Shown: in pieces, positions 47,990-48,395 of the stretch
How the letters are laid out: every line of letters starts with the position of its first letter
Numbering within the stretch: the stretch's first letter is position 1
Assembly (NCBI RefSeq): GCF_016026235.1
Contig: NZ_CP065613.1
Source: Escherichia coli
GTDB taxonomy: Bacteria > Pseudomonadota > Gammaproteobacteria > Enterobacterales > Enterobacteriaceae
Reading direction: 5' to 3' (one strand)
DNA length: 64,000 nt
Program-made: the position numbers and the translations under genes
The notes under the pieces: model-generated
The model's database searches: none
Seen by the model: only the letters and a program-made list of their open reading frames with translations
What the model was told of the DNA's origin: nothing

Positions 47990-48395
47990 GCCAGACGCAG
48001 CACATTCTTGCATTCGACGTGCTGCGCCTTTATTTATCACCAGCCGGAAACGCCTTGTCTCTAGACGCCCCTTCCACATACGCCACAAGAAACCTCTATT
48101 CCAGTGACACAATCACGCCTGATTATTTCCCTAGCCCGGAATATGAATAAAAACATCAACAAAGATTAAATTATCCAAACGTTACTATTGCGTCTGTGGT
48201 CGTAACAACAACCGACCTGGTGATGCGTGTTAAAGGAGACACTCTGATGTTCAGGGGGGTTATCGCGTTTACAGATCGTGGATGGCAGAAAACTTTCAGG
48301 ATCAGGTATCCATTTCAAACCAGAAAACGAGTGAGTTTACCCCATCCATGCCCCACGCGGTGAGATCGGATGTAATCAACAACAGGTTACACAAC

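What the first reader, a model, noticed from the sequence alone, without database searches (positions are those of the whole stretch)
47990..48395. Short yedL-fliE intergenic region, apparently lacking the K-12 yedN/yedM/intG remnant cluster
Only ~400 bp separate yedL from fliE here. In K-12 I recall a cluster of pseudogene remnants in this gap. If so, this strain has the ancestral, uninserted state of that site, which helps place its lineage.
Basis: established knowledge. Interest (0 to 1): 0.15.

Follow-up and report, generated by a model that had tools for sequence, protein, structure and literature searches.

The report
Prophage scar between yedL and fliE
The short gap between yedL and fliE is real, but it is a common E. 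coli version of an old, decayed prophage site that still holds the integrase remnant and lacks only K-12's 1.2-kb yedN pseudogene, so it is ordinary and not an untouched ancestral site.

Summary
yedL ends at 47989 and fliE ends at 48396, so the gap is 406 bp. The K-12 MG1655 gap is 1620 bp and carries the yedN and intG pseudogenes.

- K-12 differs by one 1212-bp block: yedN, which includes the former yedM ORF.
- Window 48125-48395 is the counterpart of the K-12 intG region, so intG is not missing. It matches the C-terminus of an intact phage integrase (Escherichia phage IdasGreatGrand: 80% aa, E 2e-16; 84% nt).
- The match runs on into a 20-bp att core formed by the last fliE codons.
- An E. 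coli genome with an intact 40.6-kb prophage at fliE has this core as two exact direct repeats.
- Truly empty sites, with fliE within 150 bp of yedF or yedD, occur in 29 of 80 Enterobacteriaceae species. None of the six Escherichia loci is empty; all carry the scar.

So the site is not uninserted.

The junction lacking yedN is identical in ATCC 8739, E2348/69, O26 and this strain. It occurs in about 1143 of 5426 complete genomes and sits in recombined flanks, so it marks lineage poorly.

Whether yedN was deleted (favoured, about 0.65) or never inserted is unresolved. Low interest; already known kind.

The parts
46389..46622 (+). yedF, the conserved chromosomal neighbour. In empty-site species it lies 49-145 bp from fliE.
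46653..46654 (.). Left edge of the variable island. Homology to E. whittamii, Escherichia sp. E1V33, SCPM-O-B-8794 and E69 stops here, 31 bp after the yedF stop.
46731..47399 (+). yedK (SOS-response-associated peptidase), here with a premature TAG at 47331-47333 (W201*). It lies inside the island. DNA homologues of 75-78% identity occur in phages PHB10, Gifsy-2 and a Klebsiella phage.
47510..47989 (+). yedL, GNAT N-acetyltransferase, intact, 159 aa.
47990..48124 (.). Segment X: spacer shared with K-12 between the yedL stop and the yedN stop (K-12 2011080-2011218).
48125..48128 (.). Junction where K-12 carries the extra 1212 bp (yedN). The junction sequence GCCTGATTATTTCCCTAGCCCGG is shared by all short alleles examined.
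48125..48182 (.). Segment Y: AT-rich (31% GC) non-integrase DNA. In K-12 it lies between the yedN upstream region and intG.
48183..48379 (+). Integrase C-terminal remnant, the counterpart of K-12 intG. The DNA match to phage int starts at 48232; the protein match is 48240-48377 (Int aa 386-431). It is frameshifted relative to K-12. The upstream limit (48183-48196) is approximate.
48380..48395 (.). Phage P-arm DNA (CAACAGGTTACACAAC) lying between the integrase stop region and the att core. It is absent from empty sites.
48396..48415 (.). att core, TTACACCTGCATGCTCATCA. It has 3 mismatches to the consensus CTACACCTGCATGGACATCA and corresponds to the fliE stop codon plus the last codons (MSMQV*). 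It is the only copy in the window.
48396..48710 (-). fliE, flagellar hook-basal body protein. Its 3' end is the attachment site.

Best explanation
The 406-bp yedL-fliE spacer is the scar of a temperate phage that integrated into the 3' end of fliE.

Shown:
- The 20-bp att core is the last codons and stop of fliE. The phage carries its own copy, so fliE stays intact after integration.
- Next to fliE the window keeps 16 bp of phage arm and about 165-200 bp of the integrase 3' end, the counterpart of K-12 intG.
- Compared with K-12, the spacer lacks one 1212-bp, 34%-GC block that holds the EspR-family leucine-rich-repeat effector pseudogene yedN, which includes the old yedM ORF.
- The X|Y junction lacking yedN arose once. 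It now circulates in E. coli as an old presence/absence polymorphism shuffled by homologous recombination.

Inferred:
- Everything between 46654 and 48395 (yedK, yedL, X, Y, int remnant) is what deletions left of one or more stacked prophages.
- The short allele most likely arose from a long yedL-espR-int' allele by a 1.2-kb illegitimate deletion (about 0.65). The alternative is later insertion of the effector gene.

The spacer has no evident function of its own: no promoter, terminator or known RNA was found.
For: - K-12 comparison: the 1212-bp difference is confined to yedN, and the flanks are collinear.
- Integrase remnant: tblastn to the 434-aa integrase of phage IdasGreatGrand gives 80% over 46 aa, E 2e-16. 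blastn gives 84% over 195 nt, E 2e-58, and runs past the int stop into attP. PGAP annotates an 'integrase' pseudogene here in many short-allele genomes.
- att core: it is shared by phage attP and by empty Citrobacter and Enterobacter sites. It occurs as two exact 20-bp direct repeats 40.6 kb apart around an intact P22-like prophage at fliE in E. coli 30602_1#64. A full-length integrase starts about 39 bp after fliE in 12 species, and 29 species have empty sites.
- Island limits and cargo: homology to other Escherichia species breaks at 46653 and at 48232-48380. yedK homologues sit in phages next to int/attP (PHB10) or at the prophage end after a T3SS effector (Gifsy-2). In E. cloacae, yedK lies between the int remnant and yedD.
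- Single origin of the short junction: the junction sequence is identical in five divergent genomes.
- Frequencies among 5426 complete genomes: 132 have yedL-fliE contiguous, 1143 have the junction contiguous, and 1541 carry the yedN/espR block.
- The ends of the 1212-bp block show no target-site duplication or terminal inverted repeat.
Against: - The polarity of the yedN difference is not settled. The block is tightly gene-sized (4 bp past the stop, 79 bp upstream of the start), as an inserted 'moron' would be.
- Short alleles are at least as diverse as long ones in the flanks (90-96% versus 95.8%).
- No phage in the collections carries espR, yedL, X or Y.
- No outgroup Escherichia locus has espR here.
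- No second att core marking the far end of the old prophage survives in the window, so a prophage origin for yedK and yedL rests on position and analogy.
- Pfam does not detect the integrase fragment.
Confidence: 0.85

Rival explanations
1. One reading: this is the ancestral site that never received an insertion, and K-12 gained yedN/yedM/intG as an inserted cluster.
For: K-12 does have 1212 extra bases here. Short alleles are diverse and widespread.
Against: The window retains the intG counterpart and phage arm DNA next to fliE. Truly empty sites look different: fliE is followed within 49-145 bp by yedF or yedD. Every Escherichia species locus examined has the phage scar.
Confidence: 0.03
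2. A narrower version: after the prophage had decayed to yedL-X-Y-int', the short allele was the older state. The espR/yedN gene with its promoter region was then inserted between X and Y in one lineage and spread by recombination.
For: The indel is gene-sized with tight limits, and the block is low in GC (33.7%). Flank diversity among short alleles is equal or greater. No espR occurs at this site in the outgroup Escherichia loci.
Against: The block ends carry no transposition or site-specific signature. Deletion is the process seen repeatedly at this locus: O26 lacks yedL, VL40 and G5 are truncated, and K-12 yedN is itself decayed. Gifsy-2 shows the same order of T3SS effector followed by a yedK homologue at a prophage end, so the effector fits as original cargo.
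Confidence: 0.33
3. The short spacing arose several times by independent deletions, or is an assembly collapse.
For: The locus is deletion-prone and has tandem duplications, as in the O157-like strain.
Against: The junction sequence is identical in five genomes whose flanks differ by 4-10%. The same structure occurs in 132 finished genomes, including reference strains.
Confidence: 0.02

Closest known systems
K-12 intG pseudogene / cryptic prophage PR-G (b1936)
   Same: The integrase C-terminal remnant sits in the same position against fliE. It is 93% nt identical over 326 nt and collinear.
   Different: The window copy has a 2-bp insertion (a frameshift) and several substitutions. The adjoining yedN block is absent.
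Integrase and attP of Escherichia phage IdasGreatGrand (PP925829.1) and Enterobacter phage CobraSix
   Same: The C-terminal integrase sequence is 80% (IdasGreatGrand) and 75% (CobraSix) aa identical. For IdasGreatGrand the arm and the 20-bp core also match.
   Different: The window keeps only about the last 46-67 codons and no other phage gene. It is a dead remnant.
Phages that integrate into the 3' end of a protein gene and supply a replacement end, such as e14 and phage 21 at icd (my own knowledge)
   Same: The core overlaps the last codons and the stop of the target gene. The phage copy encodes the same MSMQV* end, so fliE stays intact.
   Different: The target gene is fliE and the duplicated coding part is only about 6 codons. 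No excision or integration experiment was done here.
O157:H7-type espR3/espR4 locus and K-12 yedN (EspR-family leucine-rich-repeat T3SS effector genes)
   Same: They occupy exactly the position that is empty in the window, between X and Y.
   Different: The window has no EspR homologue anywhere (tblastn). The O157-like strain has a tandem duplication of the unit yedL'-espR-int'.
Distal cargo region of lambdoid prophages, for example the right end of Gifsy-2
   Same: The order T3SS effector, then an SRAP (yedK-like) gene, then the prophage end parallels espR-(yedL)-yedK-yedF in E. coli.
   Different: This is an analogy of gene order only. No tail-fibre genes or second att core remain in the window.

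Membership tests
Tyrosine-recombinase (phage integrase) pseudogene, counterpart of K-12 intG | Sequence homology to the C-terminal part of an intact integrase | tested here: met
   tblastn gives 80% over 46 aa, E 2e-16, to Int aa 386-431. blastn gives 84% over 195 nt. Pfam alone finds nothing.
Tyrosine-recombinase (phage integrase) pseudogene, counterpart of K-12 intG | Same position and collinearity with K-12 b1936 | tested here: met
   Window 48125-48395 aligns to K-12 2012431-2012699. intG is 2012502-2012780.
Functional integrase gene | Full-length ORF (about 430 aa) containing the catalytic domain | tested here: not met
   Only about 46-67 C-terminal codons remain, with stops and a frameshift.
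Prophage attachment site at the fliE 3' end | The same core sequence in phage attP, in empty attB sites, and as direct repeats flanking an integrated prophage | tested here: met
   The 20-bp core is in IdasGreatGrand attP and in empty Citrobacter sites. Exact repeats lie at L092 964-983 and 41548-41567.
Prophage attachment site at the fliE 3' end | Recombination at this core catalysed by the integrase | not testable with these tools
   Needs an integration or excision assay.
Ancestral, uninserted fliE-downstream site | No phage-derived DNA between the fliE stop and the conserved chromosomal neighbour (yedF or yedD) | tested here: not met
   Window 48232-48395 is integrase plus P-arm DNA. Empty sites have 49-145 bp with a hairpin only.
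K-12-type yedN/yedM remnant (EspR-family LRR effector pseudogene) | Presence of the 1212-bp block or of any EspR-like coding sequence | tested here: not met
   The block is absent by blastn. tblastn of EspR3 and EspR4 against the whole window finds nothing.
Transposable or cassette insertion (for the K-12 1212-bp block) | Target-site duplication or terminal inverted repeats at the block ends | tested here: not met
   Only chance 5-6-mers are shared within 30 bp either side of the two junctions.

The most novel reading that the evidence does not exclude
The last codons of fliE are a conserved attachment site for a family of P22-like/lambdoid temperate phages across Enterobacteriaceae. On this reading, the E. 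coli 'backbone' genes yedK (the bacterial SRAP/HMCES model protein) and yedL are not ancestral chromosomal genes. They would be cargo left behind and retained when prophages at this site decayed. The attachment-site part is shown here. The cargo origin of yedK and yedL is inferred from their position inside the island, their absence from the same interval in other Escherichia species, and the phage-borne yedK homologues.
Probability: 0.55. Interest if true: 0.3.

Novelty: already known. Interest (0 to 1): 0.1.

Why it matters
It matters little beyond annotation. The result corrects the idea that this strain shows a pristine site. Presence or absence of yedN here should not be used as a lineage marker, because the allele is shared across phylogroups and sits in recombined flanks. 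A modest by-product is a clear definition of the fliE 3' end as a phage attachment site, and of the yedF-fliE interval, including yedK and yedL, as a prophage graveyard. That is useful for prophage prediction and for thinking about where yedK came from.

Tried and rejected
- Pfam scan of the translated integrase remnant found no integrase hit. tblastn and blastn to phages were needed instead.
- An apparent resemblance of 48108-48132 to the att region was dropped. It was judged by eye against P-arm plus core, the true core is only the 20 bp inside fliE, and a 3-mismatch search finds a single copy in the window.
- Exact-pattern scans of IMG/VR viral contigs for segments X and Y gave 0 hits.
- The phage collection has no EspR homologue (one marginal 24% hit), no enterobacterial YedL homologue, and no DNA match to yedN, X or Y.
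- I tried to root the yedN indel with the diverged O157 espR3 copy of Y-int'. The two O157 units are 93-100% identical except for the last ~260 bp. The 11-bp and 2-bp indels are incompatible with the short/long state on a single tree. Recombination therefore prevents rooting.
- The outgroup locus L011 has yagU-like and ybcV-like ORFs rather than espR next to yedL, which says nothing about polarity.
- The spacer has no promoter or terminator consensus. The only Rfam match is CssrB at 19 bits against a 76-bit gathering score. Repeats are only at chance level.
- Literature searches for yedN/intG/fliE, for fliE attB prophage, and for EspR3/EspR4 found nothing describing this locus.

Full report
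**Observation.** The window carries yedL at 47510-47989 (+) and fliE at 48396-48710 (-). The spacer is 47990-48395, 406 bp. Over yedL-fliE the window is 100% identical to E. coli FDAARGOS_943, where PGAP annotates the same genes.

In K-12 MG1655 the same two genes are 1620 bp apart. That spacer holds pseudogene yedN (2011223-2012351, -) and pseudogene intG (2012502-2012780, +, noted 'cryptic prophage PR-G'). The former yedM is the 116-aa ORF at the 5' end of yedN.

**What differs from K-12.** blastn aligns window 44910-48128 to K-12 2008000-2011218 (96.7%) and window 48125-51696 to K-12 2012431-2016000 (96.1%). The difference is therefore one block of 1212 bp, K-12 2011219-2012430.
- The block begins 4 bp beyond the yedN stop and ends 79 bp upstream of its start.
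- It is 33.7% GC.
- Its ends show no target duplication or inverted repeats.
- tblastn with EspR3 and EspR4 finds nothing in the 64-kb window.

**intG is not missing.** Window 48125-48395 is the counterpart of the K-12 intG region.
- Its translation...RHSDVQGGYRVYRSWMAENFQDQVSISNQKTSEFTPSMPHAVRSDVINN..., mirrors the K-12 intG product.
- It matches the last 46 residues of the 434-aa integrase of Escherichia phage IdasGreatGrand: 80% identity, E 2e-16. It matches Enterobacter phage CobraSix at 75%.
- At DNA level the match (84%, E 2e-58) continues past the integrase stop through CAACAGGTTACA.AAC and into ...TACACCTGCATG..CATCA, which is the 3' end of fliE.

**The attachment site.** I compared phage attP, occupied sites and empty sites.
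- The common core is 20 bp, CTACACCTGCATGGACATCA. It corresponds to the fliE stop codon and the last codons (MSMQV*).
- DNA on the integrase side of the core is phage arm. It is absent from empty sites.
- E. coli 30602_1#64 carries an intact P22-like prophage (integrase to tailspike) next to fliE. It is bounded by two exact copies of the core, 40.6 kb apart. An older integrase remnant lies beyond the distal copy.
- Among 80 species representatives fetched with FliE, 29 have an empty site (yedF or yedD 49-145 bp from fliE). Twelve have a full-length integrase about 39 bp after fliE, 7 have integrase remnants, and 31 have other inserts.
- All Escherichia loci in that set retain at least the phage arm: E. 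whittamii, sp. E1V33, SCPM-O-B-8794, E69 and E. albertii.
- The window has one core copy, with 3 mismatches.

So the spacer is a prophage scar, not an uninserted site.

**Extent of the island.** Homology between the window and the other Escherichia species stops at 46653, which is 31 bp after yedF. It resumes only at 48232-48380. So yedK, yedL and the spacer all lie in the variable interval.
- yedK has 75-78% DNA homologues in three phages. In PHB10 it sits next to the integrase. In Gifsy-2 it follows the tail fibre genes and the effector sseI at the prophage end. The third is a Klebsiella phage.
- In E. cloacae, yedK lies between an integrase remnant and yedD.
- In SCPM-O-B-8794, an 80%-identical yedL is flanked by yagU-like and ybcV-like ORFs.
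- I found no phage homologue of yedL or of EspR. A cargo origin for these two genes is therefore an inference.

**Population picture.** Structures seen at this locus:
- Window type: yedK-yedL-X-Y-int'-fliE. Found in 132 of 5426 genomes, including ATCC 8739 and E2348/69.
- O26 type: yedL deleted, X-Y junction intact. Together with the window type, 1143 genomes have 48062-48395 contiguous.
- K-12 type, with yedN/espR. 1541 genomes carry the block, which is 85-100% identical to the K-12 copy.
- O157 type: a tandem duplication of yedL'-espR-int', with the new joint CAACAGGT|CAGTATGG.
- emrE-ybcL-ybcM type, with yedK truncated by insertion sequences.
- An IS1-truncated form lacking fliE.

The junction sequence is identical in the window, SWHEFF_68, ATCC 8739, E2348/69 and O26, although their flanks differ by 4-10%. 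The short junction therefore arose once. Nearby indels (11 bp and 2 bp) occur in all combinations with the short and long states. This indicates recombination. By my own knowledge of phylogroups, both states occur in group A (K-12 long, ATCC 8739 short). The short state also occurs in B2 and B1. The allele is a poor lineage marker.

**Polarity of the yedN difference.** This is not resolved.
- For deletion: decay by deletion is seen repeatedly at this locus; there is no insertion signature; and Gifsy-2 shows the same order of effector then SRAP gene at a prophage end.
- For insertion: the block is tightly gene-sized and AT-rich; short alleles are at least as diverse as long ones; and espR is absent from outgroup loci and from phage collections.

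I put deletion at about 0.65.

**Function.** The spacer shows no promoter or terminator consensus, no credible Rfam match, and only chance-level repeats. It is most simply non-functional remnant DNA between two convergent genes.

**Verdict.** This is an ordinary, already catalogued kind of structural polymorphism at a cryptic-prophage site. Interest is low.

Noticed in passing
window 47331-47333 (yedK codon 201); also 46831: yedK has a premature amber stop (TGG to TAG, W201*) that removes the last 22 residues, plus a D34G change. The otherwise near-identical FDAARGOS_943 has the intact 222-aa gene.
   Followed up: partly
window 48008-48064 (+): PGAP annotates an 18-aa 'cyclic lactone autoinducer peptide' ORF here in FDAARGOS_943 and other short-allele genomes. 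The TIGR04223 AgrD hit is marginal: 21.5 bits against a 19-bit cut-off, over 14 residues. It lies in remnant DNA, so it is probably a false positive.
   Followed up: partly
window 48817 region (fliE-fliF intergenic A-run): The ungapped window-versus-FDAARGOS_943 comparison loses register from about 48817, in an A-run. This suggests a small length difference between the two sequences.
   Followed up: no
window 24108-24494: tblastn with the phage integrase gives a second, distant hit: 29% over 142 aa, E 6e-10. Another tyrosine-recombinase-like gene therefore lies elsewhere in the window.
   Followed up: no
window 48925-50583 (fliF) and 46731-47399 (yedK): These genes are only 95-96% (fliF) and 93-97% (yedK) identical to K-12, O157-like, O26, ATCC 8739 and E2348/69. 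yedE-yedF is 97-98% identical. The flagellar side of this strain carries a rather divergent allele, and only 7 records match the yedL-fliE query at 99% or more.
   Followed up: partly
L003 12149-16063 (E. coli ERL06-2503, O157-like): There is a tandem duplication of the unit yedL'(from codon ~50)-X-espR-Y-int'. The new joint is CAACAGGT|CAGTATGG, with 3-4 bp of microhomology. The two copies are 93-100% identical except for the last ~260 bp, which are 88-90% identical.
   Followed up: partly
L092 1001-41567 (E. coli 30602_1#64): An intact 40.6-kb P22-like prophage is integrated at fliE between exact 20-bp core repeats. It is stacked in front of an older int remnant-emrE-ybcL-ybcM-IS200-truncated yedK array.
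   Followed up: yes
L005 3756-7804 (E. coli G5) and L089 (VL40): Two other decay forms of the locus. In G5, DLP12-like emrE-ybcL-ybcM lie next to fliE and yedK is cut by IS200/IS1. In VL40, an IS1-associated deletion removes fliE itself.
   Followed up: no
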